NCBI GenBank assembly: GCA_030765785.1
Contig: JAVCCC010000028.1
Location: forward strand, 2,826-66,825
DNA length: 64,000 nt
Source: Candidatus Aceula lacicola
Lineage (GTDB): Bacteria; Omnitrophota; Gorgyraeia; Zapsychrales; Aceulaceae
Direction: 5' to 3'
The notes beneath the pieces were generated by a model. It saw only the letters and a list, made by a program, of their open reading frames with translations, made no database searches and was not told where the DNA came from. The translations under genes and the position numbers were made by a program. Below, piece after piece: positions 1,902 to 49,475 of this stretch. Positions within the stretch are counted from its first letter, which is position 1. Every line of letters begins with the position of its first letter.

Positions 1902-1906
1902 ATCGC

Positions 1907-4940: not shown

Positions 4941-4957
4941 ATGTTCTCCTAAAAATT

Positions 4958-5506
4958 TTATTGTAAAATCGTTTCTAATACTTTTGTTTGTTTGTATTTT
5001 TCAAATTTTTCTCTACCCTTTGAAGAATTAATTTCTCTATAACGTTCTAAAATTTGTAGCTGCAATCCATAAACAACAAGCGCTTCAATATGAAAAATAT
5101 CTCGCCTGATAAATTCATTTAATTTTTGCCACCTAAAACGATCTAATATCTTTTCTGCCTCTAGCGGATTTTCGGCCTTAATAGCACGATGAACCACACT
5201 AATCGAAGCCGAATCAACATATCGGTCTCCTCGGATATAATCTGAAGAATCCTTGCCTTGATTCTTAGCGCGAATACGAATCATTTCATTTCTAAATCTT
5301 CTATTAACTTTTGCCCAACGATCTAAAACAGGGCTCTCTGTACAAGAATCATCATAATTCAATGTAGATTTCTTTAAAATAGAAAAATCTTTTTCGCTCA
5401 ATTGCTCTTGACATAAATTCAAAAAATCTTGATAAGAAAAATTAACTTCTTTATCAAAATCTAACATCGGCAAACTAGAAACAAGATAATAATATGGGCT
5501 GCTCAT
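4958..5506 (-). CDS. DUF2764-like protein of V-ATPase operons (hypothetical)
   Basis: 182 aa. Sits between atpE and atpA exactly like the conserved hypothetical gene in Chlamydia-type V-ATPase operons. No recognised catalytic motif. Confidence 0.45.
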   Translation of the reverse strand: MSSPYYYLVSSLPMLDFDKEVNFSYQDFLNLCQEQLSEKDFSILKKSTLNYDDSCTESPVLDRWAKVNRRFRNEMIRIRAKNQGKDSSDYIRGDRYVDSASISVVHRAIKAENPLEAEKILDRFRWQKLNEFIRRDIFHIEALVVYGLQLQILERYREINSSKGREKFEKYKQTKVLETILQ

Positions 5507-5511
5507 AAAGT

Positions 5512-6123
5512 TTAGTTAGCTGCGTCTTTTAGTAATTCAGCGACTTGTGGGTTTAAATACATGCTTAGATATTCTGCTAAGCTTACGTCAGTAAACTCAA
5601 ACGAAGATTTGCCGGAATCAAAACTAACTGTAAATCCTGCTCCAATATCTTCCGAAGGACGAATCTCAATATTTTTTTTAACATCCTCTTTTAACTTTGC
5701 CATAACGCTACCAGACACAGCATCCAAATCTTTTTGGTTAAGTTCAACTTCAACCTTAGAACCAGCAGATTGATCCATAAAATTCTGGATAACAGTTTTT
5801 AGGACATCTGCCATCTGTTCGATAGTTAGAGCTTGAGTGGTTTCTTTTAAGATAATTTTGTTTAGGGTTTCTTGGATTTTCTTTCGAAGGTCTAAAAGCA
5901 TGTCGCGAGAGGCTTGCGTGACGGCTGCCTTTGCGCTTTCCTGAAGCTTGCCGGCATCTGCTTTTGCTTTTTCAACGATAACTGCTGCTTTTTGTTCAGC
6001 ATCTTTTATGATTGCGTCAGCTTTTGTTTGCGCCTTTGACTCAATCTCTTGAGCTTTTTGCTGCGCAGTTTCAAAGCCTTCTTCTTTGATTTTATTAATC
6101 AGATCTTGCACTTGTCTTCCCAT
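5512..6123 (-). CDS. atpE: V-type ATP synthase subunit E (peripheral stalk)
   Basis: 203 aa. Charged, Lys/Glu/Ala-rich coiled-coil N-terminus (AQEIESKAQTKADAIIKDAEQKA) and globular C-terminus. First gene of the V-ATPase block. Confidence 0.7.
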   Translation of the reverse strand: MGRQVQDLINKIKEEGFETAQQKAQEIESKAQTKADAIIKDAEQKAAVIVEKAKADAGKLQESAKAAVTQASRDMLLDLRKKIQETLNKIILKETTQALTIEQMADVLKTVIQNFMDQSAGSKVEVELNQKDLDAVSGSVMAKLKEDVKKNIEIRPSEDIGAGFTVSFDSGKSSFEFTDVSLAEYLSMYLNPQVAELLKDAAN

Positions 6124-18391: not shown

Positions 18392-19153
18392 TTATTTTAA
18401 AATCTGCTCAATTTGATTCTTAAACTCTTGGGCTGTCCGCCCCATTGTTCTCTTTCCATTAACAAAAAACGTAGGCGTTCCCCCAACTTCTGCTTTTCCA
18501 GCAACCGCCATACCTTTTTGAACCATTTGCTCTAATTGCGCATCTTGATCTTTTAATTTCTGAGCAAACTCATCGGCATCAATCCCAAGCTGCCCAGCTA
18601 ACTCTTTATACTTATCTTGACTTAAACCTTTAGCATTCTGAAAAATCAGATCCATCATTTCCCAATATTTTCCATATTGCTTAGCAATTAAAAGCGCTTT
18701 GGTTGCTGGCTTCGCTTCTTTGTGATAAGGAAGCGGGAAACTCATAAAAACATAATTAACATCCTCAGGATACGCATTGACAACATCCATGATAATCGGG
18801 TGAAATTTCTGAGAATAGGGACACTGGAAATCAGAAAATTCTACAACAGTCACTTTTGCTTTTGGATTTCCTTTAACCATCGAACCGCTAATGTCAATAT
18901 CATAAATTTTATTAGGATCTACTTTGGGTCTCGCTCTTTCTTGCCCTTTTGGCTGACGCAAAAGACCTTTACCCGACAATGCTTTTATAATTTGTTTTTG
19001 ATTATCTTCAATAGCAAATAACTTTTGCTCCAATCTCTTTTGATAAATAAAACCCTTTTTATATTCACTCATTTTCAAAGCAAACATTGCCAAAAGAAAA
19101 AGAGCCACTGAGCTAAACAACAATATTTTTTTTAACATTTTCTTCCCTTTCAA
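18392..19153 (-). CDS. DsbA-like thioredoxin-fold protein with single-Cys CPYS motif, membrane-anchored
   Basis: N-terminal TM helix. DsbA-fold region FSDFQCPYSQKF...LPYHK with CPYS in place of CxxC. Confidence 0.55.
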   Translation of the reverse strand: MKGKKMLKKILLFSSVALFLLAMFALKMSEYKKGFIYQKRLEQKLFAIEDNQKQIIKALSGKGLLRQPKGQERARPKVDPNKIYDIDISGSMVKGNPKAKVTVVEFSDFQCPYSQKFHPIIMDVVNAYPEDVNYVFMSFPLPYHKEAKPATKALLIAKQYGKYWEMMDLIFQNAKGLSQDKYKELAGQLGIDADEFAQKLKDQDAQLEQMVQKGMAVAGKAEVGGTPTFFVNGKRTMGRTAQEFKNQIEQILK

Positions 19154-19171
19154 GATATCTATGAGTATTAT

Positions 19172-19335
19172 TTATTGATTTATATTCTCTAAGAGCATCT
19201 CTGCTACTGTATCCCTAGCAAGCTGCTTGACGTCAGTTCTGATTTTCTTTTCCCAAGCATCAAGTCGAATAAAAAAAATAGTGGCAAAAATAGCCATACC
19301 TAAAATTATAATCAAAAACGCTACTGCTTTTTTCA
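19172..19335 (-). CDS. Small (54 aa) single-TM hypothetical protein
   Basis: Manual translation gives MKKAVAFLIIILGMAIFATIFFIRLDAWEKKIRTDVKQLARDTVAEMLLENINQ. It sits in an otherwise empty 270-nt gap. Too short for the ORF track. Confidence 0.25.
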
Positions 19336-19424
19336 TTTTTTCTCCAATTTACTATGATTAGAATGAACAATTTTACCCTATAAAGCCCTGTTTGGCAAAC
19401 AAATTCTATTGACCTTTCAAAGCT

Positions 19425-20267
19425 CTAAAGTGCAATCCTGCCGTAGCGAGAAACGATATATTTAATGTCTTTCCATCGGCGTCCGCTTTTGCATCCAAAA
19501 ATCGCAATAATCAAATCATCTCCCCCATGTTTTGCGTATCCGACAAAACATGATTTTGCCTTTTTTGTATATCCCGTCTTTCCAAAAAGCTTTTGTTTCC
19601 AATCAAAAAAAAGAATTTTATTATGACTTTTTAAGGTCGTTTTTCGTCCTTTCTCTGAATAAATCGTTTTATACTTATATGTAATTGCTTTCTTAAAAAA
19701 AGGATGCTTTAAAGCAGCTCTAAAAATCAAATACATATCATATGCTGTTGTATACTGCGTTCCAGGCTTTGTGGGCAGCCCATTAGAATTCGCAAACTGT
19801 GTGTGCTGACATCCAAGCTGCTTTGCGCGCTTATTCATCATAACGGTGAATTTCTTTTCTGTTCCCGCCATGGCTTCAGCCAAAATGACGCTAGCATCAT
19901 TGGCCGACCTAAGCAAAATTGCAAAAAGAAGATCCGAAACCTTATATCGATCGCCTGGGCGAGCATAAATTTTACTAGGCTCAGGATATGTTGCATTTTT
20001 ACTAACTTTAACCATATGGTTTAAAGGAAGTTTTTCTAGCGCAAGTAACGCTGTCATAACTTTAACCGTGCTTGCCGGCAAAACTTTCTTATGTACATTC
20101 TTGCCGTAAAGTCTTCTAACTTTTGTGCTGTTAGAAAATATGGCTGACTTGGCTGAGACATGATATTTCTTCGCGGCTTCGCTTCTCGCTGACAATCCTA
20201 CGAAGAAAACAGAAAACAATACGAAGCTAACACAAAATATTTTGATCCTTACGAACTTTATCAACAT
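19425..20267 (-). CDS. D-alanyl-D-alanine carboxypeptidase (peptidase S11, PBP5/6-like)
   Basis: Signal peptide, then the SxxK active-site motif (ASTVK) and a downstream SxN (RSAND) motif. Confidence 0.7.
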   Translation of the reverse strand: MLIKFVRIKIFCVSFVLFSVFFVGLSARSEAAKKYHVSAKSAIFSNSTKVRRLYGKNVHKKVLPASTVKVMTALLALEKLPLNHMVKVSKNATYPEPSKIYARPGDRYKVSDLLFAILLRSANDASVILAEAMAGTEKKFTVMMNKRAKQLGCQHTQFANSNGLPTKPGTQYTTAYDMYLIFRAALKHPFFKKAITYKYKTIYSEKGRKTTLKSHNKILFFDWKQKLFGKTGYTKKAKSCFVGYAKHGGDDLIIAIFGCKSGRRWKDIKYIVSRYGRIAL

Positions 20268-20272
20268 AAATT

Positions 20273-21292
20273 TTATTTTGATCGCTGAAATGCTAAAGAA
20301 ATTATTTTCTGAATAAGCTCATTATAATGAATGCCTATTTTTTCAGCCGACTGAGCCACCTCATCGCATCGAGCAATGCAAGGGTTTGCGTTTGGCTCCA
20401 GAATATAAATGCGTCCCGTTTCTGTCACTCGAATATCAAAACGCGCATAACTCTGAATATTTAAAGCCCTATAAGATCGCTTACACGTTTCTTTGATTCG
20501 CTCTTCTAGGTCTCCCGCCAGCTTTCCGATAAAAACACTTTTAATATCCCATTTTTCTCGATATTTGTCATCCCACTTTGCCTTATATGTTGCAATGCGA
20601 GGCTCATCTTCTGACATTTTTCCAAATTTAATTTCTCGAAGTGGCAATGCTTCCAAACGCTTATTTCCAAAAACGCTAACATAAATTTCTCGCCCTTCAA
20701 TATATTCTTCGGCGATAGCATCGGCATTCATGCTTTCATGAATAAATCGAATACGTTCAACAAACGCCTCCTCTTTATCAACGACAGATGCTAACGATAT
20801 CCCTCGAGAGGCCTCTTCACTCAAAGGTTTTATAACCGCTGGGAGCTTTATATTTTTAGGAAGCCAGACCCGATGTTTTCGATAAAATGTATGAAATCGC
20901 GGAACACGAATACGATGAAAACGAATTATTTTTTTTGCTAATGCTTTATCATTACAAATAAAAAGACTCTCTGCGGAAGCCCCGGTATAAGGAACGCCAA
21001 TCATTTCAAAAAGTCCTGCGACATTTTTATCCAACTGAGATTTCTGGTCAAACACCTCCGCCAAATTAAAAATAACGTCTGGAGGAAATTCTTTTACTTC
21101 TTCAAGAAGTATGCCTATGTCATTATAAAGCCCCAGCAATCGAACCTCGTGGCCATTTTCTAAAAGAGCTCGGTAGACATCGTTTTCCGTATACCAATTA
21201 TCCTTGTCTTTAAACTCTTCGACAAAGTCATAGCCTCTTGGTTTTACATAAGGGCTATCAAAAACTAAAAGAACTTTTAATTTCTTTTTCAT
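20273..21292 (-). CDS. ATP-grasp ligase of the D-Ala-D-Ala ligase (Ddl) family, divergent
   Basis: 339 aa. ATP-grasp fold with Ddl-like C-terminus (YILEPNANPC...). N-terminus diverges from canonical Ddl. Confidence 0.55.
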   Translation of the reverse strand: MKKKLKVLLVFDSPYVKPRGYDFVEEFKDKDNWYTENDVYRALLENGHEVRLLGLYNDIGILLEEVKEFPPDVIFNLAEVFDQKSQLDKNVAGLFEMIGVPYTGASAESLFICNDKALAKKIIRFHRIRVPRFHTFYRKHRVWLPKNIKLPAVIKPLSEEASRGISLASVVDKEEAFVERIRFIHESMNADAIAEEYIEGREIYVSVFGNKRLEALPLREIKFGKMSEDEPRIATYKAKWDDKYREKWDIKSVFIGKLAGDLEERIKETCKRSYRALNIQSYARFDIRVTETGRIYILEPNANPCIARCDEVAQSAEKIGIHYNELIQKIISLAFQRSK

Positions 21293-21298
21293 AAAAAT

Positions 21299-22333
21299 TT
21301 ATTTCTTATTTCCTCGAAACCATCCCGTATAAACATAATTAAGAGTAAGCGCTGTAATATACGTTGCCACCTTTAAAATGGCCGTACTCTCGGAATCTTT
21401 AATCACAAGATTAAGCGCACGACACCGAAGACAAATATCTTTAAAAAGATCGTTGACGATATACTTTTTCTCTCCCGTCCACATCGAAACATTATCTAAT
21501 ATCTCTCGACGATATTTTCGTATGCTTTTAACTGCCGAAGGCATATCTTTATTTTCTTCTGTTCGCTCTAAAAAAATTCTCTTTAAATTTTCGTCATGGA
21601 AATGAGGAAAATCTTCAGCATGAAAATGCTTCTTCTTTTTATAATGATTTCCTAGCGTCCTTTTAAGTGTCGATGCCTGCCAATACTTTTTCCACTTCTT
21701 AACAACAGGCTCTTTATTTTGAATCTTTTTCATAAGCGATTCAACATACTCTATCTTTTTAATCGCTTTCCATTTTTTATATTGATTTTGCCAATCCGAA
21801 TCAGATGTCAACCAAACAGCAAAAGTCTCTGCAAAATCTTCATCCGGATGATATTGTGCATAGAATCCATCTAAGTGACGGACAAAATTCTTGCTGTGCG
21901 GTCGATAGCGATATGTGTCATCATATTCTTCGGATGAATGTCCAAATGTTTTCTGCCAACTACGTTTTTTATGCAAACGATACGCATAACTTATCGCATG
22001 GCCAAGCTCATGACGCAAAAGCTGCAGACACGTCTTTTTTGTTCCACCCTCAACATCAAGCATCATTCTTTGTTCAAGCTTCATCAATGTTGGATGTGCT
22101 AAATAAAAAGGAATTCCGATAACGGGCTCGTCTTCTGGAGTTAGCCATTCTTCAGCCAAATAAAATTCTGGTTTAAATTTAAGATTTTTTCTCTCAAGAT
22201 CAGAATAAACTTCAGCAAGACATTCCTCAATCCACGTCCCCTCAATAGCAATCGGAAGCTCGCAAATTCGTAAGGCCAGAAGTTTTTCTTCAGAAATTTC
22301 AGATAGGTTAATCACAGTTTTTTCTCGTCCCAT
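21299..22333 (-). CDS. Putative zinc metallopeptidase (HExxH)
   Basis: LLRHELGHAISYAY HExxH motif in a ~340 aa soluble protein with a Lys/Trp-rich C-terminal half. Confidence 0.45.
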   Translation of the reverse strand: MGREKTVINLSEISEEKLLALRICELPIAIEGTWIEECLAEVYSDLERKNLKFKPEFYLAEEWLTPEDEPVIGIPFYLAHPTLMKLEQRMMLDVEGGTKKTCLQLLRHELGHAISYAYRLHKKRSWQKTFGHSSEEYDDTYRYRPHSKNFVRHLDGFYAQYHPDEDFAETFAVWLTSDSDWQNQYKKWKAIKKIEYVESLMKKIQNKEPVVKKWKKYWQASTLKRTLGNHYKKKKHFHAEDFPHFHDENLKRIFLERTEENKDMPSAVKSIRKYRREILDNVSMWTGEKKYIVNDLFKDICLRCRALNLVIKDSESTAILKVATYITALTLNYVYTGWFRGNKK

Positions 22334-22461
22334 ATTCCCTTCTCCATCTTTTAGAAATTATACCATAGCTTCAAAGTCAATGACATTACTTTTGTAATTC
22401 TTAAGAGACAAAAAAAGCTTTTTTTGTTATGATGCTAAGGACAAATTAAAGAAAGAATACT

Positions 22462-23256
22462 ATGTGGATTGAAAATATCGTCTTAGGCATCACGCAAGGC
22501 ATCGCAGAATGGCTCCCGATAAGCTCCGAAGGACTTATTACTCTGATCAAAATAAAATTCTTTTCGGACCATCACTTTTTTTCTATTATCAAGCTTGCTT
22601 TATTTTTGCATCTCGGAACATGCTTTGCCGCGTTCATCTATTTTTGGAAAGATGTTGTATCTCTTTCAAAAACACTTTTCTTTTATAATGCTGCTGATGA
22701 AGAAAACAAGAAGACTCTGACCTTCCTAATCATATCATCAACAATAAGCTGCCTTTTAGGCCTTATCATAATCCTTCTTGTTTCAAAAATCGCCAATCAA
22801 ATGCTTTTATCTGGAAAAATCATGACGTTTGGAATAGGAATTCTGCTTCTTATAACAGCATTTCTACAATTAAAAACAAGAAAAGAAGGCTTTAAGAATG
22901 TTCGAGATTTAAGAAAAATTGATGCTGTTGTCTTAGGCTTCGTCCAAGGATTTGCTGCTCTTCCTGGGCTATCTCGCTCCGGATCAACCATCGCCACCTT
23001 GCTTCTAAGACAATTTGACAAAACAACTTCACTAAAACTAAGTTTCTTAATGAGCCTTCCCGTCGTCTTAATTGGGAATATTTTCTTAGGAATAAAACAT
23101 TTTGAATTTACTTTTGAATCGCTGGCAGGATTTTTCTTTTCTTTTGCTTTTGGACTCCTAACAATCCACATTTTATTTAAAATTGCTAATAAGATTAATT
23201 TTGGCTATTTTGTCCTCGGATTTGGAATCTTAACGATAATTTCAGTTTTCATATAA
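22462..23256 (+). CDS. uppP: Undecaprenyl-diphosphate phosphatase
   Basis: GITQGIAEWLPISSEG and ALPGLSRSGSTI motifs of BacA/UppP. Confidence 0.85.
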   Translation: MWIENIVLGITQGIAEWLPISSEGLITLIKIKFFSDHHFFSIIKLALFLHLGTCFAAFIYFWKDVVSLSKTLFFYNAADEENKKTLTFLIISSTISCLLGLIIILLVSKIANQMLLSGKIMTFGIGILLLITAFLQLKTRKEGFKNVRDLRKIDAVVLGFVQGFAALPGLSRSGSTIATLLLRQFDKTTSLKLSFLMSLPVVLIGNIFLGIKHFEFTFESLAGFFFSFAFGLLTIHILFKIANKINFGYFVLGFGILTIISVFI

Positions 23257-23703: not shown

Positions 23704-24906
23704 ATGTCTATTCAAATCGGTATCGGCTTTAGTAAAGATGAGAGTCCTTTTCGCGCAGCGCAAGACGCCGCTATTCAAGCTAAAATTCAAACAAAAGAAG
23801 TCCCCGTTCAACTTGTTGTCGTTTTTTCGACAATCCACTATAGCCGAATTGAAGCTCTAAATGTTATCAAAGAAACATTTCCTGAAGCTAAAATCATAGG
23901 ATGCTCAACAAGCGGCCTTATTCTTTCTAAAACAATTGAAACTTGGGGCATTTCCATATTAGCCATCGGATCAAAAGATCTTCATTTTGGCATTAGTTGC
24001 GTCAAAAACATAAGCAAAGATAAAATCAATTTAATTTCTGAAGAGCTCGCCCAAAAAGCAACCAAAAACTTTGGCCTAGATCGTCGACAAGTATCCTTAC
24101 TGCTAACCGATGGGCTTTCTCAAAATAATTCTCTGCTTCTTAAGGGAATGCAAAAATCTTTAGGACTCCTCTCTCCGATCCTCGGTGCTGGCAGCAGCGA
24201 TAACTTTCAATCAAAAAAAACATATCAATACTTTGAGAATGAAGTTTTAACAGACTCCGCGATTGCCGTTATTATGGGCGGACAAATCGCCACCGGATTT
24301 TCTAGCCAACACGGATGGAAACCTTTGGGAAAACCACGTATTATTACAAAAGCAAAAAAAAATATTATCAAAGAAATTAACAATAAAAAAGCTATCTCGC
24401 TTTATGAAGAATTCTTTGCTGATCAAGCCGTGTCTCTTTTTTCAAGTCGGTTAAATCGTATGCGTGATTTTTATCCCTTAGGCATGCTTATCGAAGGTGA
24501 AAAAAAATATCTGTTACAACAAGTTGTCAGCGTCACAGATACCGGTGAGCTCGTTTGCCAAGGGGAAATTCCAGAAGGAACAGAAGTCCATATCATGATC
24601 GGAAACAAAGATTCTTGCCGCCATTCTGCTCTTAATGCGGCCTGCGAGGTGAAAGAATCTCTTTTTGGCAGAACTCCTGATCTTGTTCTTGTCTTTGAAT
24701 CCGCTTCTCGGCAAAAATTATTAGGCCGTAATATCTTTCAAGAAATCCAAATTATCAAAGAAGTTTTAGGAGAAAGTGTTCCCATTTTTGGAATGTACTG
24801 CTACGGTGAATTCGCTCCCCTAGGAACACCCGGGCAAGCAAGCCAGTCTTTTTTGCAAAATGAAACAATATCCATCTTAGCTATTGAACACCATAAGGTT
24901 TATTAG
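23704..24906 (+). CDS. FIST-domain sensory protein (FIST_N + FIST_C)
   Basis: 400 aa soluble protein with the two-lobed FIST architecture. Immediately upstream of a histidine kinase, as is common for FIST proteins. Confidence 0.5.
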   Translation: MSIQIGIGFSKDESPFRAAQDAAIQAKIQTKEVPVQLVVVFSTIHYSRIEALNVIKETFPEAKIIGCSTSGLILSKTIETWGISILAIGSKDLHFGISCVKNISKDKINLISEELAQKATKNFGLDRRQVSLLLTDGLSQNNSLLLKGMQKSLGLLSPILGAGSSDNFQSKKTYQYFENEVLTDSAIAVIMGGQIATGFSSQHGWKPLGKPRIITKAKKNIIKEINNKKAISLYEEFFADQAVSLFSSRLNRMRDFYPLGMLIEGEKKYLLQQVVSVTDTGELVCQGEIPEGTEVHIMIGNKDSCRHSALNAACEVKESLFGRTPDLVLVFESASRQKLLGRNIFQEIQIIKEVLGESVPIFGMYCYGEFAPLGTPGQASQSFLQNETISILAIEHHKVY

Positions 24907-24955
24907 TATATTAAATCAAGAAGCTATTAAGAATCTTTACTTTAAAATATAATTT

Positions 24956-26497
24956 ATGCTAAATATCACAAGTTCTTCTGTCGACCTTACCTTTTTTGCG
25001 ATTATCGGAATTGCCATCCTGACGATGATCGCAGCGCTAGTTTTTGTTCTTATCAACAAAATCGATCAGGTTAAAGAGCTACGCTCCGCTCTAAAAAAAC
25101 TTAAGCTGTCATTTAACAATTTGGACGAGCAGGCAAAGCTTATCTTAAAGACCGATCTCGAGCTTAACCGCGCACAAGAAGAGCTGGATAAACGTCTCGC
25201 CAGCCTTGATGCGCTTCAAAGAACATCACGTCTTATCAGCACAACTTTGGATGAGGCTGAAATCTTTCGAAGACTTGACAAATCCCTCATGCTTCAACTC
25301 GGTTTTGAACAAATCCTTGTTTTTATTCTTGATAAGAAAAAGAATTTAATTCCGCGCGTCAATTCTGGATTCTCAGACTCTAAAATTCAAGAAGCTTCCG
25401 ACCAACTTTTAAAAGATACATCTTTTTCTTCTTTGTTTAAAGAAGGCTATGCTCTTTCTTCTGCAACAACATCTAAAGCAAAAAAAGAAAAAATCATCGC
25501 TTTCTTTGGAGCAAGCAATTTTATTCTCTCTCCTATCTTGACACAAGATGGAACCATTGGCGTTATCTTCGTCGGAAATCAAAACGAAACACAAACAATG
25601 TCTGAAGCGGATGAAGAAATGATTTCCATCCTAACAAATCAAATCGGCCAATCTCTTGAGAACGCACAACTTTTTGAACAAGTCTACAAATCTCGACAAG
25701 AACTAGAATCAAGAATTCAAGAGAGAACCAGACAGCTTGCCTCTGCCTTAGAAAAAGTGCAAAAAATTAGCCGAACAAAAACCGAGTTCGTTTCAGCAGT
25801 TTCTCATGAGCTAAGAACTCCTTTGACATCTATCAAGGGGTACGCGTCGATTCTTATGACAGGAAAGCTCGGAGAAATTCCAGATAAAGTTAAAGAACGA
25901 CTAGAAAAAATTAACAAGCATTCCGACAACCTCGTCGAACTGATTAATGAACTTTTAGATATTTCTCGAATTGAGTCTGGACGCGTTGATATGAAATTTG
26001 AGAAAATACCTGTTAAAAGCTTAATAGAAAATGCACGTGATCTCTTGATGCTACAGATGAAAGAAAAACAAATCACATTCTCTTGTGAAATAGCAGAAAA
26101 AACTCCAAATATTTTGATTGATCAAAAACAAATTGAACGTGTTTTTATTAATCTTTTAAGCAATGCTATTAAATATACCCCAAATGGAAAAATAAACATC
26201 AAGGCCTCCCACAACGAAAAAGAAGTCCTTTTCGAAATCGAAGATACTGGATCGGGCATTAAGGCAGACGATCTTCCTCGTCTTTTCGATGAATTTTATC
26301 GAGTTGATGACGAGCTTAACCAAAATATCAAGGGAACGGGCTTAGGTCTCTCTTTAGCCAAGCATATTATCACAGCTCACCAAGGAGAAATATGGGTCAC
26401 CAGCGAAATCGGCATTGGAACAACATTTCATTTTACAATTCCTATTGATCGAAAAAATGAAAACCTTGATCAAGAAAAAGAAATTCTAAATTCATAA
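24956..26497 (+). CDS. Sensor histidine kinase (TM, coiled coil, GAF, HisKA, HATPase_c)
   Basis: H-box [19 protein letters not shown], plus N, G1 and G2 boxes (GTGLGLSLAK). GAF-like region precedes. Confidence 0.75.
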   Translation: MLNITSSSVDLTFFAIIGIAILTMIAALVFVLINKIDQVKELRSALKKLKLSFNNLDEQAKLILKTDLELNRAQEELDKRLASLDALQRTSRLISTTLDEAEIFRRLDKSLMLQLGFEQILVFILDKKKNLIPRVNSGFSDSKIQEASDQLLKDTSFSSLFKEGYALSSATTSKAKKEKIIAFFGASNFILSPILTQDGTIGVIFVGNQNETQTMSEADEEMISILTNQIGQSLENAQLFEQVYKSRQELESRIQERTRQLASALEKVQKISRTKTEFVSAVSHELRTPLTSIKGYASILMTGKLGEIPDKVKERLEKINKHSDNLVELINELLDISRIESGRVDMKFEKIPVKSLIENARDLLMLQMKEKQITFSCEIAEKTPNILIDQKQIERVFINLLSNAIKYTPNGKINIKASHNEKEVLFEIEDTGSGIKADDLPRLFDEFYRVDDELNQNIKGTGLGLSLAKHIITAHQGEIWVTSEIGIGTTFHFTIPIDRKNENLDQEKEILNS

Positions 26498-26512
26498 AAG
26501 GCTAAAAAATAA

Positions 26513-27442
26513 ATGAATCAACTAAAAATTTTAACTATTGATGATGACCCAGATATCCTAGATGTTTTAGAATTAACATTATCAGAAGATTATATTGTCT
26601 TTCAGGGATCCAACGGCGAAGAAGGCCTAACACTTGCCAAAACCCACTCTCCCGACCTTATTATTACAGATTATAAAATGCCGGTGATGGACGGCCGTCA
26701 ATTTTGTCGATTAATTAAAAAAGACATTTTATTACAGCACACGCCGATCATTATGCTCACCGGAAAAGGTGAAGTACGAGACAAGGTTGGCGGACTTGAG
26801 GCCGGCGCAGATGATTATCTTGTGAAACCATTTGAACCTAACGAACTTTTAGCCAGAATTCGTATGATTCTAAGACGTACCAAGCGAAGCCTTGATGCCA
26901 ACCCCCTAACGCGTCTCCCCGGAAACAATTCTATTATGGATGAGCTGCAATATCGCATTCAATCTCAAAAACCATTTGCTGTTGGTTACGCAGATTTAGA
27001 CAAATTTAAAGCCTATAACGACACTTATGGATTTGAGAAAGGCGATGAAATTATTAAAGAAACAGCTCGTATTGTCATTAACGCAACCCAAGAAAAAGGG
27101 GATAGAGAAACTTTCGTAGGCCATATTGGTGGCGATGATTTTGTTTTTATCTGCGAGGATGATATCGCTGACGCTATCTCGCAAGAAATAATCAAACAGT
27201 TTGATGCGAAAGCGCCTCTTTTTTACAACGAAAAAGATCGCGAAAAAGGCTATATCGTCGCAAAAAACAGACAAGGCGAACAGGTCAAGATTGGGCTTCT
27301 AGCTATTTCAATTGGAATTGTAAGTAGTCGTAAACAAGAAATTAAACACATCGCTCAAGTTGCTGAAATTGGAGCTGAATTAAAGAAATATGCAAAAAGC
27401 ATTGAAGGAAGCTCTTTTGTAAGGGATCAAAGAGCCGAATAA
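26513..27442 (+). CDS. Response regulator with receiver + GGDEF-type domain (GGDDF variant)
   Basis: REC domain (DDDPD...D...MLTGKG...K). C-terminal PLTRLPGNN...HIGGDDFVF matches the GGDEF fold. Confidence 0.65.
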   Translation: MNQLKILTIDDDPDILDVLELTLSEDYIVFQGSNGEEGLTLAKTHSPDLIITDYKMPVMDGRQFCRLIKKDILLQHTPIIMLTGKGEVRDKVGGLEAGADDYLVKPFEPNELLARIRMILRRTKRSLDANPLTRLPGNNSIMDELQYRIQSQKPFAVGYADLDKFKAYNDTYGFEKGDEIIKETARIVINATQEKGDRETFVGHIGGDDFVFICEDDIADAISQEIIKQFDAKAPLFYNEKDREKGYIVAKNRQGEQVKIGLLAISIGIVSSRKQEIKHIAQVAEIGAELKKYAKSIEGSSFVRDQRAE

Positions 27443-29995: not shown

Positions 29996-31600
29996 TTAAG
30001 TCCCCTCTTCTCTATCTTCAAATCGCCTCATGTCGATAACCAGTGTTTTTTCTTGAAAACTTGATGGTTTTTCAGAGGCAACCCCAGAATCCACCTTGAT
30101 CTGATATCGATACATTTGCTTTTCATCATTAATATCTCTAAAAATATATAAAACCATCTTTGTGCTAGGATCAAAATTGATGTGAAACACCTCCATCGTT
30201 CCTTTAGCAACTTCTCTTAAAAGGCAAGAAACCAAACCCACCATGTTATGACTATAAACAGTCGTTAAATTGCCAAATTCATCACCTCTGTTTTTTAAAT
30301 ATCTCTCTTCAGGCTGAACAAAATAAATCTTCTCATATTCATTAATATTAACTTTTGCCATTTGATCTTTAACAAACTGAATCTCCTTCTGGCTTGGAAC
30401 AACACGATAATTTAATATTGTCTGATGTGCCTGCACCACACCATAAAAACTTAACAACAAAAGTGCGATAGAAAAAACTATTCTTTGACGATTTTGAAAA
30501 ATAAATTGAATCCATGCCCTTGCCGACCATATAAAAATAAAGAAAACAAGCACTGTGAGCGGTCCCGCACATCGATAATAAAAAATACTTTGACTGGAGA
30601 CAAGGTTAGGCAAAAAACTTAATAATGATAAAATAATCAAGATTGAAGATCGAACAAAACCATTTATAAAAAATTCTATTCTTTCTTCTTTTTGCTGTCG
30701 TAAAACTTCTAAAGCAATCGCGGAAATGACAAACGTAACACCAACAGCAGCAGCTATCTTATAAGGAAATATATTCCACAAGTTTAATGCATTTACCAAA
30801 GGCTCTCTAAGAAACCATCCTATTTTTCCAAAATAATCTGTTGTCAGCGCATATGGATTATATCCCCATAAATTAAATCGAGAAAAATATGGCTTAATTA
30901 ACCGAAGAACAAGCACGTAAAGACCTAGCGAAACGATTGCCGGAGAAAATAAATTAATCATCCGATTCTTAATTTCAGAGAAATCCTTAAACTCAGAAAA
31001 TAAAACAACCAGCCCAGCCATCGTCCAATAAAACATAGCTGTTGGCTTATACGTCGACAAGGCACAAAAAAACAAGAAAACAGATAATACAAATCGACCA
31101 TTAAATATCCGACGAACGATCTTATCCGACAAAGAAATACGGTAAGCAGACGAAAAAGCCCCAATGGCAAATAAAATAGAAACTGGCTGGTAAGTCATTG
31201 CCGTCTGAGATACGGCAATCTGAAAAGAAGGCAAAGTAAAAACAGCTAACGATAATAAAAAAGCGTTTCGTGATGAAAAAAATTTCTTCCGAAGCCAGAA
31301 AAAAAGAATGAGTGCGCAAAACGCAAGATTAACGACACCTAAAAATCGAACACCTTTAAGGTCATCAATAGAATTGATCAAAAACCCCATTGCCATGTAC
31401 AGATGCGCCCCAATAAAACGCCCAATTGATAAATTAAAAAGCGTCCCTGGCGCCTCAGGTCTCGTCGAAGTTCTTAAAAAGAAGATGACATCATCGTGAT
31501 ATGCATAATACGATGAAATGGCAGGCCAAAATGCAATACATAGAAAGATTAAAAAAAGGGAAAAAATAATGACTCTTTGAAAAACTTTTGTTTTAATCAT
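29996..31600 (-). CDS. Large polytopic membrane protein, possible GT-C-type glycosyltransferase
   Basis: 534 aa with more than 10 TM helices. An HDD motif follows the first TM helix (YAYHDDVIFF), as in GT-C enzymes. C-terminal soluble domain. Confidence 0.3.
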   Translation of the reverse strand: MIKTKVFQRVIIFSLFLIFLCIAFWPAISSYYAYHDDVIFFLRTSTRPEAPGTLFNLSIGRFIGAHLYMAMGFLINSIDDLKGVRFLGVVNLAFCALILFFWLRKKFFSSRNAFLLSLAVFTLPSFQIAVSQTAMTYQPVSILFAIGAFSSAYRISLSDKIVRRIFNGRFVLSVFLFFCALSTYKPTAMFYWTMAGLVVLFSEFKDFSEIKNRMINLFSPAIVSLGLYVLVLRLIKPYFSRFNLWGYNPYALTTDYFGKIGWFLREPLVNALNLWNIFPYKIAAAVGVTFVISAIALEVLRQQKEERIEFFINGFVRSSILIILSLLSFLPNLVSSQSIFYYRCAGPLTVLVFFIFIWSARAWIQFIFQNRQRIVFSIALLLLSFYGVVQAHQTILNYRVVPSQKEIQFVKDQMAKVNINEYEKIYFVQPEERYLKNRGDEFGNLTTVYSHNMVGLVSCLLREVAKGTMEVFHINFDPSTKMVLYIFRDINDEKQMYRYQIKVDSGVASEKPSSFQEKTLVIDMRRFEDREEGT

Positions 31601-33276: not shown

Positions 33277-34650
33277 TTAACAGTTCTTTTCTAGTAAATA
33301 CTTGCTCTGGTTCTTCGGAACTTGCTCAGGATACACACCATCAAAACATGCGTGACAAAACGCATTAGAATCTTTCATGATTCCAAGCATTCCCTCTAAG
33401 CTTAAGTATTGAAGAGAATCAACCTCAATAAAATCAGCGATCTCTTTAACGCTCTTGTTGGATGCAATCAACTCACCTTTACTAGGAAAATCAATACCAT
33501 AAAAACAAGGAAATGTAATCGGCGGACATGTCACTCTGAAATGAATCTCTTTAGCCCCAGCTCTTCGAATCTCCTCGACACGACTTCGACTTGTTGTACC
33601 GCGCACAATAGAATCCTCAACAACCACAACACGCTTTCCTTTTAAAACATCACGAATTGGGTTTAATTTTACACGCACCCTAAATTCCCGCAAAAACTGA
33701 CTCGGCTGAATAAAAGTCCTGCCAATATAATGATTTCGAATCATGCCAATTTCTAAAGGAAGACCTGACTCTTTAGCATATCCAACTGCCGCATAATTTC
33801 CCGAATCAGGAATCGCCATAACAAAATCTGCATCAATAGGATGTTCTTTAGCAAGCTGTTCCCCTAAACGTTTTCGCACTAAATAAATATTATCATCAAA
33901 AATATGGCTGTCTGGTCGAGCAAAATAAATATTCTCAAAAATACAATGCGCCTTTTTCTTGCTTTTCTCTAAAAATACACTTTCGACCTTTCCATCGCTA
34001 ATAAAAACAATCTCACCCGGCTCAAGCTCTCGGACAAGCTGTGCTCCAATCAAATCCAAAGCACATGTTTCACTGACTAAAATATATGCGTCTCCTTTTT
34101 TACCTAAACATAAAGGGCGAAACCCAAAAGGATCGCGCGCACCAACTAAAACATTTCCCATCATAAAAACAAGAGAAAAAGCTCCCCTTAAACGCATCAA
34201 AGCATTCTTAATCCATGCTTTGATATCTCCATTCTTTGTTTTTGCTAAAAGATGAACAATCACCTCAGAATCCATTGTTGTCTGGAAAATAGATCCCTGC
34301 TCTTCTAATTCATTATAAAGATCTTCTGTGTTTGTCAAATTGCCGTTATGCGCAATAGCAATCGGTCTATTTTTATGTGTCGCTAAGAACGGTTGAATAT
34401 TCTTAGAATTACTAGATCCTGTTGTTGAATAGCGAGTGTGCCCTATTGCAAAGTTACCTTTAAGACTCTCAACAGAGTTTTCATTAAAACAATCTGCAAC
34501 AAGGCCTCGAGCTTTTTGTGAGTGAATTTTCTTTCCATCAAAAGAAAGAATGCCGCACGATTCTTCTCCTCTGTGCTGTAACGCATACAGACTTAAAAAA
34601 ACAATCTTTGCTGCTTCTTCATGATTGGAAACACCGACAATGCCACACAC
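33277..34650 (-). CDS. purF: Amidophosphoribosyltransferase
   Basis: MCGIVGV Ntn start. PRTase domain. C-terminal Cys cluster. Confidence 0.9.
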   Translation of the reverse strand: MCGIVGVSNHEEAAKIVFLSLYALQHRGEESCGILSFDGKKIHSQKARGLVADCFNENSVESLKGNFAIGHTRYSTTGSSNSKNIQPFLATHKNRPIAIAHNGNLTNTEDLYNELEEQGSIFQTTMDSEVIVHLLAKTKNGDIKAWIKNALMRLRGAFSLVFMMGNVLVGARDPFGFRPLCLGKKGDAYILVSETCALDLIGAQLVRELEPGEIVFISDGKVESVFLEKSKKKAHCIFENIYFARPDSHIFDDNIYLVRKRLGEQLAKEHPIDADFVMAIPDSGNYAAVGYAKESGLPLEIGMIRNHYIGRTFIQPSQFLREFRVRVKLNPIRDVLKGKRVVVVEDSIVRGTTSRSRVEEIRRAGAKEIHFRVTCPPITFPCFYGIDFPSKGELIASNKSVKEIADFIEVDSLQYLSLEGMLGIMKDSNAFCHACFDGVYPEQVPKNQSKYLLEKNC

Positions 34651-34652
34651 AG

Positions 34653-37600
34653 TTAAACTCCTTTACGATAATATTCTTGCAAAGACTTTACATTAAAATC
34701 TTTTTCTTTGCTTGATTCAATTCCGTTGATAGCCGCCCATGCCCCTTGTATCGTTGTGATGCACGGAACATTTTGCAAAATAGCAGCTGCGCGAATAGAA
34801 CGCATATCTGATTGACTCTTTTGCCCAGAAGGCGTATTAATAATCAAATTAATCTTATTCTCTTTAATTAATTTTAACAAATCATTTTTTCCTTCACCAA
34901 CTTTATCAATAATCTGAACTTTAATTCCATTTTTTTTAAGCGCTCGGGCTGTCCCCCTTGTTGAAAGAAGGTGGAATTTCATATCAAAAAGTTTTTTTGC
35001 TAAAAATGCAATATTGCGCTTATCTGTGTCATTAACGCTTAAGAAAATCTTTCCATCTTGAGGCAAAGATTGACCAGCCGCTGCTTGCGATTTTGCAAAG
35101 GCAGCACCAAAAGTTTCATCAATGCCCATAACCTCTCCTGTTGACTTCATCTCAGGACCTAAAACAATGTCCACGCCGGAAAAACGAGAAAAAGGCAAAA
35201 CAGATTCTTTAACCGAAATATTCTTCAATTCTTCAATATCAACAAATTTAAAATCAGATATCTTTTTTCCAGCCATAATTTGAGATGCTATCTTCGCTAA
35301 AGACACCCCTGTTGCCTTACTAACAAAGGGTACAGTTCGAGACGCTCTCGGATTAACTTCCAAAACATAAATCCGATCCCTTTTAATCGCAAATTGAATA
35401 TTCAAAAGACCAACAACTTTTAATCCTTTAGCAATATCACAAGTATGTTTTTTAATTCTCTTAATTAACGTCGAACTCAACGTATGTGGTGGCAAAACGC
35501 ATGCTGAATCACCTGAATGAATTCCTGCATTTTCAATATGCTCCATCATGCCAGCAACAACAGCATCTTGTCCGTCAGAAATACCATCCACATCAACCTC
35601 AATCGCATCTTCAATAAATTGATCAATCAAAACAGGGTGTCCCTGCGAAACATCTTTAGCCTCTTCAATAAATTCAAGCAATGATTTCTCATCGTACACA
35701 ATTTTCATAGCCCTACCACCTAAAACATAAGATGGTCTTGCTAAAACTGGATATCCAATTCTTTGCGCGATTTTAATCGCTTCCTCTGCAGAAAGAGCAG
35801 CACCATTTTCAGGCTGAGAAAGTCCAAGCTTTGTGATAAATTCTGAAAACTTTTCTCTATTCTCTGCTAAATCAATAGACTCCACTGTCGTTCCAATAAT
35901 AGGCACCCCAACTTCATTTAACGCATGCGCTAAATTAAGCGGAGTCTGTCCACCAAGCTGTACGATAACGCCATCTGGTTTTTCAACCTCAACAATATTC
36001 ATAACATCTTCAAACGTGAGTGGCTCAAAATAAAGACGATCAGATGTATCATAATCCGTCGAGACTGTCTCAGGATTTGAATTAACCATAATCGTTTCGA
36101 AATCCATTTCTTTTAATGCAAACGAAGCATGACAACAACAATAATCGAATTCAATACCTTGTCCAATACGATTTGGCCCACCACCTAAAATCATAATCTT
36201 TTTTTTCTGACTCTTTTCTTTCTTCGCAGCCTTGCTTTCATCTTCATCTTCATATGTTGAATAATAATATGGCGTATACGCTTCAAACTCAGCTGCACAC
36301 GTATCAACTAATTTAAAAACCGCACGAATACCTAGGCTCTCTCTTAAGCTTCGCACTTCTTTTTCAGTTGTTAAAAAAATCTGAGCCAATTGTGCGTCGC
36401 CAAACCCCCACTGCTTTGCTTGTCTTAAGGAATCTTCGCCAACCGTCTTTTTTTCATCAAATTCTTTTTTAAGTTTATTCTCAAATTCTACCAATTCTGC
36501 GATATTAGAAAGAAACCATGGATCAATCTTTGTAATTTCAAAGATTTCGTCAATACTCATTCCTTTTTGAAGTGCATATTTAATATAAAAAATACGAGAT
36601 GCATTTGGAACTTTAAGTCGCTGAGTCATCTTCTCATCAGAAATATCTTTAAAATTAAGTTTGTTGTCTAATCCCACATGCCCTATTTCAAGACCACGCA
36701 AACCTTTTTGCAAAGATTCTTTAAACGTGCGCCCTATCGCCATTGTTTCTCCAACAGACTTCATGGAAACACCTAAAGTGTCGCCTGCCTCAGGAAATTT
36801 CTCAAAAGTAAATCTTGGAATTTTTGTCACACAATAATCAATCGTCGGCTCAAACGCAGCGGGCGTTTCTCTTGTAATATCATTTTGAATTTCATCTAAT
36901 GAATATCCAATAGCCAATTTCGCTGCAAACTTTGCAATCGGAAAACCTGTTGCTTTGCTCGCCAAAGCAGAACTGCGAGATACTCGAGGATTAACTTCAA
37001 TAACAACAATGCGTCCATTTTTAGGATCAACTGCAAACTGAACATTGCACCCTCCGGTCTCGACGCCAATCTCTCGAATTACTGCAAGAGTTTGATCTCG
37101 CATTCTTTGATATTCTTTATCCGATAAAGTTTGCGCTGGAGCAACCGTAATGCTGTCACCGGTATGAACACCTAAAGGATCTAAATTCTCAATAGAACAA
37201 ACAATAACAACGTTATCTTTACAATCTCGCATAACCTCAAGCTCATATTCTTTCCACCCCTCGATAGACTCTTCAATCAAAATTTCACTATTCATACTAC
37301 TTTCAAGACCTAGAAAAGCTATTTTTTCAAGCTCTTCATCATTATGAACAATTCCTCCACCCGTTCCGCCTAATGTATAGCTTGATCGAACAATCAAAGG
37401 AAATCCAATTTTCTTGGCTGCTTCTCGAGCTTCTTCAATGGTATGCGCAAACGCACTTTCAGGCACTTCAAGACCAACTTTCAAAACAGCTTCTTTAAAA
37501 CATTCACGATCCTCTGCTTTTTTAATAACATCATACGGTGCCCCAATAAGCTCGACATTATATTTTTCTAAAATACCTTGCTCAGAAACTTTCATCGCTA

Positions 37601-37892
37601 AATTTAAACCTGTTTGACCGCCTAGCGTTGGCAAAAGCGCATCTGGCCTTTCTTTTTCAATAACGCGCTCAACAAACTCCGGTGTCAAAGGCTCAACATA
37701 GGTCGCATCCGAAATCTCAGGATCTGTCATAATCGTCGCTGGATTTGAATTAATCAAAACGACTTCATATCCTTCTTCTTTAAGCGCCTTGCAAGCCTGC
37801 GTTCCAGAATAATCAAACTCACATGCCTGTCCAATAATAATCGGACCGGAGCCAATCAATAAAATTTTCTTTATATCGTTACGTCTCGGCAT
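34653..37892 (-). CDS. carB: Carbamoyl-phosphate synthase large subunit
   Basis: 1079 aa with duplicated ATP-grasp halves and a C-terminal MGS-like domain. Confidence 0.9.
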
Positions 37893-38976: not shown

Positions 38977-39075
38977 ATAAAATAAATACCAAAAGGCATG
39001 TTTCAAGAACTGGCTCTTCAAAGCCAGGTACAATATATCATTATTAATTTGCGCGTCAAATAATATTCATTAATT

Positions 39076-40503: not shown

Positions 40504-40507
40504 ATTC

Positions 40508-45046: not shown

Positions 45047-45078
45047 AATTTAAATTTATTAACTTTTAAAAACACCCA

Positions 45079-46773: not shown

Positions 46774-46877
46774 TTTTTTGCCTACTTTTTATACAATAAA
46801 TTTCAAAAAAACTTAAAGATTCCAAAGCCTTCAATATCAACATACTTTTTAAAAAAAATCATAAATCTTTCCTAAAA

Positions 46878-48971: not shown

Positions 48972-49103
48972 GCATTCCTCCTATTTAATATTCTAAGATT
49001 CAAATCCTCTGCCATCTCTTCCCTATAAATATATCAGTCTTTTAAAACTTTCTTTTCTACAAAAAACAAAAAAAGTCACTACCAAGCTACTCAAGAAACT
49101 TAC

Positions 49104-49445: not shown

Positions 49446-49475
49446 GATATTTTCCTCCATTAACATAAGATTGTT

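What the first reader, a model, noticed from the sequence alone, without database searches (positions are those of the whole stretch)
19425..22333. Zn-metallopeptidase / Ddl-family ATP-grasp ligase / DD-carboxypeptidase three-gene cassette divergent from uppP
Three co-directional genes encode a soluble HExxH metallopeptidase, a divergent D-Ala-D-Ala-ligase-family ATP-grasp enzyme and a secreted S11 DD-carboxypeptidase. They are transcribed divergently from the undecaprenyl-PP phosphatase gene.

The ligase has a non-canonical N-terminus, so it may ligate something other than D-Ala-D-Ala. The pairing with a dedicated Zn-peptidase looks like a make-and-trim module acting on a D-amino-acid-containing dipeptide or the peptidoglycan stem peptide. 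It could mediate stem-peptide remodelling or resistance-like D-Ala-D-X editing.
Basis: partly seen in the sequence, partly recalled or inferred. Interest (0 to 1): 0.55.

Follow-up and report, generated by a model that had tools for sequence, protein, structure and literature searches.

The report
Conserved zinc-peptidase plus Ddl-like ligase pair
An Omnitrophota genome carries a tightly coupled gene pair, a cytoplasmic zinc peptidase and a ligase that resembles D-alanine-D-alanine ligase but has a changed substrate pocket; the pair recurs across more than ten bacterial phyla with no known function, while the neighbouring cell-wall genes are local bystanders.

Summary

Only the first two genes form a conserved unit. 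In 83 loci carrying a peptidase homologue, from Omnitrophota, Nitrospirota, Acidobacteriota, Planctomycetota, Gemmatimonadota, Myxococcota, Bdellovibrionota, Alpha- and Gammaproteobacteria and others, the ATP-grasp gene lies immediately downstream in 79 of 81 informative cases. In 53 of those 79 the stop and start codons overlap by 4 nt. None of the 83 has an S11 or uppP gene nearby. That arrangement survives only in two close relatives (88% and 79% identity).

The ligase has a Ddl fold and keeps every ATP/Mg2+ catalytic residue. It scores about half the curated Ddl thresholds, its first 82 residues do not align with DdlB, and the D-Ala-contacting residues are replaced (S150A, Y216W/H, S281D/E, L282E/D). 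The peptidase has HExxH plus a downstream Glu, a fold like anthrax lethal factor and PPEP-1, and no signal peptide. It shows no VanX/VanY (M15) signal.

Best reading: a self-contained ligase-hydrolase module acting on an unknown amide, not D-Ala-D-Ala. The peptidoglycan link has no comparative support. I found no literature on the pair.

The parts
21299..22333 (-). Cytoplasmic zinc metallopeptidase, 344 aa; first gene of the conserved pair. HELGH at residues 108-112. Y158-x4-P163-x-E165 is the likely catalytic Tyr and third zinc ligand. A C-terminal helical domain spans about residues 190-340.
   Evidence: PF15887, 37.6 bits against a cut-off of 27. H108, E109, H112, Y158, H162, P163, E165, D166 and E169 are at least 95% conserved in 75 sequences from many phyla. 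The AF2 model has pLDDT 84.5. The best Foldseek PDB matches are anthrax lethal factor, PPEP-1 and 4L7A, all weak (E about 0.1-0.4). No signal peptide is visible in the translation.
20273..21292 (-). Ddl-fold ATP-grasp amide ligase with a remodelled substrate pocket, 339 aa; second gene of the conserved pair.
   Evidence: PF07478, 87.5 bits. All NCBIfam Ddl/Van models score far below their cut-offs. Foldseek places it closest to Ddl structures (TM 0.7-0.85, 19-26% identity). K116, K155, E195, E202, K239, R284, D286, E299 and N301 match DdlB K97, K144, E180, E187, K215, R255, D257, E270 and N272. A161, W240, D310 and E311 replace S150, Y216, S281 and L282.
22357..22386 (-). Promoter-like site (ATGTCA-18 nt-TATAAT with a TG extension) about 24 nt upstream of the peptidase start codon. 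It could drive the pair.
   Evidence: 10 of 12 matches. The number of such sites in the region is not above the shuffle expectation, so this is only suggestive.
19425..20267 (-). Secreted S11 DD-carboxypeptidase/endopeptidase, 280 aa, starting 5 nt downstream of the ligase. It is probably co-transcribed here but is not part of the conserved module.
   Evidence: PF00768, 162 bits. Absent next to the pair in 83 wider loci. Adjacent only in L085 and L086.
22462..23256 (+). Undecaprenyl-diphosphate phosphatase (UppP/BacA), divergent neighbour. Not part of the conserved module.
   Evidence: PF02673, 156.5 bits. Absent near the pair in 83 wider loci.

Best explanation
The functional unit is a two-gene, translationally coupled module: peptidase first, ligase second. 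It is not a three-gene cassette.

The ligase is a catalytically competent ATP-grasp enzyme of the Ddl structural family. Like other ATP-grasp enzymes, it should activate a carboxylate as an acyl-phosphate and couple it to an amine. A Glu at the start of helix 1 (E36) may correspond to DdlB E15, which would suggest an amino-acid-like donor, but this is tentative. The acceptor pocket is remodelled: an acidic pair replaces S281/L282, W or H replaces Y216, and A replaces S150. [quoted passage not shown] This step is inferred.

The partner is an intact cytoplasmic HExxH...E zinc hydrolase. It most likely acts on the same amide, either hydrolysing the product or preparing the substrate. That would make a synthesis/hydrolysis couple of the kind seen in RimK/RimB or glutathionylspermidine synthetase/amidase.

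S11, uppP, DsbA and GlmS are housekeeping neighbours that stayed adjacent only in this Omnitrophota lineage.

Shown: gene order, coupling, conservation, intact catalytic residues, altered pocket residues. Inferred: the chemistry, the substrate class, and the opposing roles of the two enzymes.
For: - Adjacency: the ligase lies directly downstream on the same strand in 79 of 81 informative loci from more than ten phyla. The stop/start overlap is 4 nt in 53 of 79.
- Co-inheritance: pairwise-identity matrices of the two proteins correlate at r = 0.94, with 0 of 500 permutations reaching that value, and both have about 48% median identity.
- No third partner: no other conserved neighbour was found.
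- Ligase competence: ATP/Mg2+ residues are conserved while the D-Ala contacts are replaced. Position 310 is E/D in 64 of 75 sequences, position 311 is E/D in 73 of 75, and position 240 is W or H in 71 of 75.
- Ddl HMM scores are about half the curated cut-offs, although the fold is closest to Ddl.
- The peptidase catalytic motif is conserved across phyla.
- Neither protein has a signal peptide.
- A preprint reports K01921 Ddl in 176 of 176 complete Omnitrophota genomes, consistent with a separate housekeeping ddl.
Against: - No substrate or product is known, and no biochemical data exist.
- The pocket inference rests on sequence alignment to DdlB, not on a ligand-bound model. L282 contacts D-Ala2 through its backbone, so its substitution alone is not decisive.
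- The first 82 residues could not be aligned, so E36 = E15 is tentative.
- I could not scan the source genome for a second, canonical ddl. The K01921 count in the preprint could in principle include this paralogue.
- In this lineage the S11 gene starts 5 nt after the ligase, so co-transcription with a cell-wall enzyme is likely here.
- The correlation between the identity matrices is also expected for any two vertically inherited genes.
- Two loci (L038, L080) carry the peptidase without the ligase.
Confidence: 0.6

Rival explanations
1. One reading: the peptidase, ligase and S11 carboxypeptidase form a make-and-trim cassette. It remodels the peptidoglycan stem peptide or edits D-Ala-D-X termini in a Van-like way, and is coordinated with uppP.
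For: The genes are co-directional with 5-6 nt gaps. The arrangement uppP | pep-lig-S11 is kept in two relatives. The ligase's closest structural relatives are Ddl and Van ligases. SLT lytic transglycosylases flank the pair in 6 of 125 neighbour genes.
Against: S11 and uppP were found in 0 of 83 wider loci. The two relatives that keep the arrangement share a longer housekeeping synteny block that also includes DsbA, L27 and GlmS. The peptidase gives no M15 VanX/VanY hit. No VanH or VanRS genes are in the window. The D-Ala contact residues are replaced. The pair also occurs in Pirellulales MAGs (L027, L063), an order reported to have lost peptidoglycan-synthesis genes (PMC12283558).
Confidence: 0.1
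2. The ATP-grasp gene is simply this organism's essential housekeeping D-Ala-D-Ala ligase, and the peptidase is an unrelated neighbour.
For: Best sequence and fold matches are Ddl. No other ddl lies in the 64-kb window.
Against: It scores 128 against 243 and 110 against 246 on the curated Ddl models. S150, Y216, S281 and L282 are replaced. The N-terminal domain does not align with DdlB. It is not in a dcw context. It is strictly linked to the peptidase in phyla such as Alphaproteobacteria, Nitrospirota and Myxococcota, which from general knowledge have canonical ddl. DdlB scores only 25-72 bits against family members, whereas members of the family score 226-533 bits against each other.
Confidence: 0.03
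3. The pair is a protein or peptide tagging system. The peptidase trims a protein C-terminus, or removes a tag, and the ligase adds residues or an isopeptide link. This would resemble RimK/RimB on ribosomal protein S6, tubulin tyrosination, or Dop/PafA.
For: Both proteins are cytoplasmic. Their genes are translationally coupled and probably produce equal amounts of the two proteins. The peptidase has a fold like lethal factor and PPEP-1, which are endopeptidases that act on proteins, plus a large extra helical domain. The ligase omega-loop region is longer than in Ddl and is poorly ordered in the model.
Against: No conserved small ORF or target gene lies nearby. The ligase is Ddl-like, a family that uses small substrates, and gave no RimK Pfam hit at E <= 0.01. 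If E36 corresponds to DdlB E15, the donor is a free amino acid.
Confidence: 0.2

Closest known systems
D-alanine--D-alanine ligase (DdlB/DdlA; also VanA/VanG ligases)
   Same: Same three-domain ATP-grasp fold (Foldseek TM 0.7-0.85). All ATP/Mg2+ and catalytic residues are conserved: K97, K144, E180, E187, K215, R255, D257, E270, N272. Similar size.
   Different: Only 19-26% identity. It scores at about half the curated family thresholds. Residues 1-82 do not align with DdlB and carry an insertion of about 20 residues after strand 1. D-Ala contacts are replaced: S150A, Y216W/H, S281D/E, L282E/D. The omega-loop is longer. It is never seen in a dcw or van context and is always paired with an HExxH peptidase.
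Pfam PF15887 Peptidase_Mx (structure 4L7A, BACCAC_01431) and the zincins resembling anthrax lethal factor and PPEP-1 (MEROPS M34)
   Same: HExxH plus a downstream Tyr/Glu motif. It passes the PF15887 gathering threshold. These are the best fold matches.
   Different: The Pfam match covers only residues 99-228. Fold matches are weak (E about 0.1-0.4). This protein is cytoplasmic, whereas those relatives are secreted or lipoproteins. It has a unique N-terminal region and a C-terminal helical domain. It scores 27.5 against a cut-off of 75 on TIGR04549. Profile comparison with E. coli MtfA (M90) is not significant beyond the HExxH motif.
Opposing ATP-grasp ligase/hydrolase couples: RimK/RimB (rimABK), glutathionylspermidine synthetase/amidase, cyanophycin synthetase/cyanophycinase (named from my own knowledge, not tested here)
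   Same: The logic is the same: an ATP-grasp amide ligase genetically coupled to a hydrolase that can undo or prepare the same bond.
   Different: Both partners belong to different families: Ddl-like rather than RimK-, GspS- or CphA-like, and HExxH zincin rather than retropepsin, CHAP or S51. The substrate is unknown. The analogy is functional and does not imply family membership.
VanA/VanX (ligase plus D,D-dipeptidase) resistance modules
   Same: A Ddl-family ligase sits next to a zinc hydrolase.
   Different: VanX and VanY are M15 enzymes without HExxH, and no M15 hit was found. There are no vanH or vanRS genes. All NCBIfam Van models score 48-98 bits against cut-offs of 495-775. The pair is chromosomal, with no plasmid matches.

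Membership tests
D-Ala-D-Ala ligase (Ddl, EC 6.3.2.4) | Score above the curated family HMM thresholds (NF002378, TIGR01205) | tested here: not met
   128 against 243 bits and 110 against 245.65 bits.
D-Ala-D-Ala ligase (Ddl, EC 6.3.2.4) | ATP-grasp fold with conserved ATP/Mg2+ and catalytic residues | tested here: met
   Foldseek top hits are Ddl structures. K97, K144, E180, E187, K215, R255, D257, E270 and N272 are all conserved.
D-Ala-D-Ala ligase (Ddl, EC 6.3.2.4) | D-Ala binding residues: the E15/S150/Y216 triad, plus S281/L282 for the D-Ala2 carboxylate | tested here: not met
   S150 is A, Y216 is W or H, S281 is D or E, and L282 is E or D, across 75 family members. An E15 equivalent may be retained as E36, but the N-terminal domain does not align.
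D-Ala-D-Ala ligase (Ddl, EC 6.3.2.4) | It is the only ddl in the genome, or sits in a dcw (murC-ddl-ftsQ) context | tested here: inconclusive
   It is not in a dcw context in the window or in any of 83 loci. The rest of the source genome could not be read. A preprint reports K01921 in 176 of 176 Omnitrophota genomes.
D-Ala-D-Ala ligase (Ddl, EC 6.3.2.4) | Synthesises D-Ala-D-Ala in vitro | not testable with these tools
   This needs an enzyme assay.
Van-type resistance module (VanA/B/C ligase with VanX/VanY and VanH/VanRS) | M15 D,D-peptidase partner, a ligase above the Van HMM cut-offs, and vanH/vanRS genes | tested here: not met
   No M15 or VanY hit for the peptidase. Van models score 48-98 bits against cut-offs of 495-775. 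No such genes are among the window ORFs scanned.
Pfam Peptidase_Mx (PF15887) zinc metallopeptidase | Score above the gathering threshold, and an HExxH motif with a downstream Glu ligand | tested here: met
   37.6 against 27 bits. H108, E109, H112, Y158 and E165 are at least 95% conserved. Catalytic activity itself is untested.
Peptidase M90 (MtfA) | Profile-level homology to E. coli MtfA | tested here: not met
   hhalign probability 0.8%, with only 17 columns aligned around HExxH.
Peptidase S11 DD-carboxypeptidase (third gene) | PF00768 above threshold, SxxK/SxN/KTG motifs, and a secretion signal | tested here: met
   162 against 27.6 bits. STVK, SAN and KTG motifs and a hydrophobic leader are visible in the translation. 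It is below the cut-offs of all specific NCBIfam PBP models.
RimK-type protein-glutamylating ATP-grasp with RimB protease | RimK-family ATP-grasp domain and a retropepsin-like partner | tested here: not met
   The only Pfam hits at E <= 0.01 are Dala_Dala_lig_C, ATP-grasp_3 and ATP-grasp_4. The partner is an HExxH zincin. This is a functional analogy only.
Known anti-phage defence systems (PADLOC) | A match to any PADLOC model | tested here: not met
   No hits for any of the three proteins.

The most novel reading that the evidence does not exclude
The peptidase-ligase pair is an uncharacterised, ancient and widely distributed cytoplasmic system. It would make and remove a so-far unknown amide-linked product, such as an amino-acid-amine conjugate, an unusual dipeptide, or a peptide tag on a protein. 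The chemistry would differ from all characterised Ddl-family enzymes and would be unrelated to peptidoglycan.
Probability: 0.5. Interest if true: 0.6.

Novelty: new variant of a known kind. Interest (0 to 1): 0.45.

Why it matters
If the pair makes a product other than D-Ala-D-Ala, it defines a new branch of the Ddl family, with a dedicated hydrolase partner, in many environmentally dominant bacteria: soil Xanthobacteraceae, Nitrospira, Acidobacteriota, Planctomycetota and Omnitrophota. The representative library holds 2,036 clusters at 50% identity for the peptidase.

It also matters for annotation. JGI labels several of these ligases 'D-alanine-D-alanine ligase', and orthology-based pipelines could count them as ddl. 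That could inflate inferences about cell-wall capacity in uncultured lineages.

The strict two-gene architecture makes the question directly testable with two recombinant proteins.

Tried and rejected
- Iyer et al. 2009 (PMC3268129) is the most likely place for a prior comparative-genomic mention, but it is not held. Whether the pair was noted there stays open.
- Literature searches for Peptidase_Mx/PF15887, for ATP-grasp with metallopeptidase or gluzincin, and for Ddl-like ligases with peptidases found nothing on this pair.
- I looked for a third conserved component in three ways. BLAST clustering of ORFs within about 5-6 kb gave only alternate-frame shadows of the two genes. A Pfam census of 125 flanking genes gave no family above 7 of 125. 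Upstream genes in Omnitrophota are not homologous to each other.
- N-terminal extensions in some peptidase homologues are Arg-rich and look like mis-called starts, not informative fusions.
- A mobile-element or defence origin is unsupported: no PADLOC hits and no plasmid matches.
- Homology to MtfA (M90) was suggested by the Y-x4-P-x-E motif but is not supported by hhalign.
- A last homologue search seeded from a Xanthobacteraceae peptidase returned only uncultured soil sequences with generic names.
- A second ddl was sought in the window and in all fetched loci, and none was found. Whole genomes could not be read.
Full report
**1. Observation**

The window region 19425-22333 contains three minus-strand ORFs exactly as described:
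- 21299-22333, 344 aa
- 20273-21292, 339 aa
- 19425-20267, 280 aa

The gaps between them are 6 and 5 nt. uppP (22462-23256, plus strand) is divergent across a 128-nt spacer. That spacer holds a promoter-like site with an extended -10 about 24 nt upstream of the peptidase start. The site count in the region is not above chance.

Pfam assigns the genes as follows:
- Peptidase_Mx to the first gene, 37.6 bits against a cut-off of 27
- Dala_Dala_lig_C to the second, 87.5 bits
- Peptidase_S11 to the third, 162 bits
- BacA to uppP, 156.5 bits

The S11 protein shows STVK, SAN and KTG motifs and a hydrophobic leader. The first two proteins have no leader. The best database hits are Candidatus Omnitrophota MAGs at 88% identity. 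The rest of the window is ordinary housekeeping: V-type ATPase, pyrimidine synthesis, YfhO, GlmS, and a nitrogen-assimilation block.

**2. What is conserved**

I aligned 47 diverse peptidase homologues (A2, built). This alignment retrieved 446 confirmed relatives in the GTDB species-representative genomes. The best 80 loci span these groups:
- Omnitrophota
- Brevinematales
- Acidobacteriota
- Gemmatimonadota
- Planctomycetota (Phycisphaerae, Pirellulales)
- Methylomirabilales
- Nitrospirota
- Myxococcota
- Bdellovibrionota
- Alpha- and Gammaproteobacteria

Adding three loci gives 83 loci. In 79 of them an ORF homologous to the window ligase (226-533 bits for full-length copies) lies immediately downstream on the same strand. 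Two loci end before that position (L019, L079). Two truly lack the ligase (L038, where an S9 peptidase follows, and L080).

The peptidase stop and ligase start overlap by 4 nt in 53 of 79 loci, the classic sign of translational coupling. Pairwise-identity matrices of the two proteins correlate at r = 0.94, with 0 of 500 permutations reaching that value, and both have about 48% median identity. This fits inheritance as a unit, although any two vertically inherited genes would also correlate.

None of the 83 loci has an S11 or UppP homologue within the fetched flanks. The uppP | pep-lig-S11 arrangement reappears only in the two closest relatives examined (88% and 79% ligase identity). There it sits inside a longer block: uppP | pep-lig-S11-DsbA-L27-GlmS-methylase.

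No third gene is conserved:
- ORF clustering gives only alternate-frame shadows of the two genes.
- A Pfam census of 125 flanking genes peaks at Peptidase_S9 (7) and SLT (6).
- The upstream genes in Omnitrophota are unrelated to each other.

**3. The ligase**

Sequence and fold both place it closest to Ddl:
- B. anthracis Ddl 3R23: E = 6e-27
- Foldseek TM 0.7-0.85 at 19-26% identity
- AF2 model pLDDT 80

It nevertheless fails every curated model:
- NF002378: 128 against 243 bits
- TIGR01205: 110 against 246 bits
- Van models: 48-98 bits against cut-offs of 495-775

E. coli DdlB scores 43.5 bits against it.

Alignment to DdlB (MAFFT, hhalign) shows all nucleotide, Mg2+ and catalytic residues retained: K97, K144, E180, E187, K215, R255, D257, E270 and N272. 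The D-Ala contacts are replaced. The replacements are family-wide in 75 sequences:

| DdlB residue | This ligase | Family-wide (75 sequences) |
|---|---|---|
| S150 | A161 | A 47, G 18, S 10 |
| Y216 | W240 | W 51, H 20 |
| S281 | D310 | E/D 64 |
| L282 | E311 | E/D 73 |

hhalign cannot align residues 1-82, which carry an insertion of about 20 residues after strand 1. A nearly invariant Glu (E36, 72 of 75) sits at the start of helix 1 in the model. That is where E15 sits in DdlB, from my knowledge of 2DLN, so the equivalence is tentative.

I infer an active amide ligase whose acceptor site has become acidic. It is therefore unlikely to bind the carboxylate of D-Ala2 and more likely to take a cationic acceptor.

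**4. The peptidase**

HELGH (108-112) and Y158-x4-P-x-E165, with D166 and E169, are at least 95% conserved across phyla. The AF2 model (pLDDT 84.5) has a zincin catalytic domain. Its best, though weak, PDB matches are anthrax lethal factor, PPEP-1 and the Peptidase_Mx structure 4L7A. A helical C-terminal domain has no match. There is no M15/VanX/VanY signal. Profile comparison with MtfA is not significant.

**5. Is it the housekeeping ddl?**

Everything tested argues against this: the HMM scores, the pocket residues, the context, and the obligatory peptidase partner in phyla that have normal cell walls. I could not read the whole source genome, so the direct test (a second, canonical ddl) remains open.

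A 2026 preprint reports K01921 Ddl and alanine racemase in 176 of 176 complete Omnitrophota genomes (10.64898/2026.06.07.730766). An iScience paper reports conserved dcw genes in the phylum (PMC12283558). Either orthology call might also capture this paralogue. The pair also occurs in Pirellulales MAGs (L027, L063), an order that paper describes as having lost peptidoglycan-synthesis genes. That is weak evidence against a peptidoglycan role.

**6. Mechanism**

The best-supported model is a self-contained ligase-hydrolase couple acting on one amide bond of unknown identity. It is analogous in logic, not in family, to RimK/RimB, glutathionylspermidine synthetase/amidase, or cyanophycin synthetase/cyanophycinase (named from my own knowledge).

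Whether the substrate is a small molecule or a protein terminus cannot be decided here. The Ddl ancestry and the possible E15 equivalent favour a small amino-acid donor. The endopeptidase-like fold and the extra domains keep a protein-tagging reading alive.

**7. Novelty**

NCBI names these proteins only 'ATP-grasp domain-containing protein' and 'putative zinc-binding metallopeptidase'. JGI sometimes labels the ligase 'D-alanine-D-alanine ligase'. No paper in the searchable library describes the pair. The 2009 amidoligase survey that might mention it could not be read.

I rate it a new variant of a known kind: a Ddl-family ATP-grasp with altered specificity, coupled to a hydrolase. Interest is moderate.

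Noticed in passing
window 19172-19336 (-): A small ORF (about 54 aa, MKKAVAFLIIILGMAIFATIFF...) with one hydrophobic helix lies between the S11 gene and the DsbA-like gene. A promoter-like site at 19398-19370 precedes it.
   Followed up: no
window 18392-19153 (-): A DsbA/thioredoxin_4 protein with an N-terminal membrane anchor. Together with L27 and GlmS downstream, it stays syntenic with the pair in the two close relatives L085 and L086.
   Followed up: partly
window 23704-27442 (+): A signalling operon next to uppP: FIST_N/FIST_C sensor protein, then a GAF histidine kinase, then a response regulator with a GGDEF domain. The FIST protein gives a weak NosP-like hit (76 bits against a cut-off of 450). 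The FIST gene is also near the pair in L085.
   Followed up: no
window 33277-52254 (-): A long co-directional block for nitrogen assimilation and nucleotide synthesis: GAF-ANTAR regulator, ammonium transporter, type III glutamine synthetase, NAD synthase, glutamate synthase large and small subunits, CarA/CarB, PurF, then CTP synthase.
   Followed up: no
window 29996-31600 (-): A 534-aa ORF with no Pfam hit at E <= 1e-5 sits directly downstream of CTP synthase, which is also 534 aa.
   Followed up: no
window 1284-6123 (-): V/A-type ATPase subunit genes (A, B, D, and a DUF2764 protein) in an Omnitrophota genome.
   Followed up: no
whole window: GC skew is negative in every 2-kb bin (cumulative -6.9), and almost all long ORFs are on the minus strand. 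This fits a single replichore with genes co-oriented with replication.
   Followed up: no
L038 7908-11217; L080 7974-10313: Two Acidobacteriota loci carry the peptidase homologue without the ATP-grasp gene. In L038 an S9 prolyl-oligopeptidase-family protein follows, and a TonB-dependent receptor lies upstream.
   Followed up: partly
protein clusters (e.g. P0391, P0397, P0480): Xanthobacteraceae-type copies of the peptidase form 90%-identity clusters with hundreds of member sequences from soil metagenomes. The pair is therefore abundant in soils, although no cultured carrier appeared among the names.
   Followed up: no
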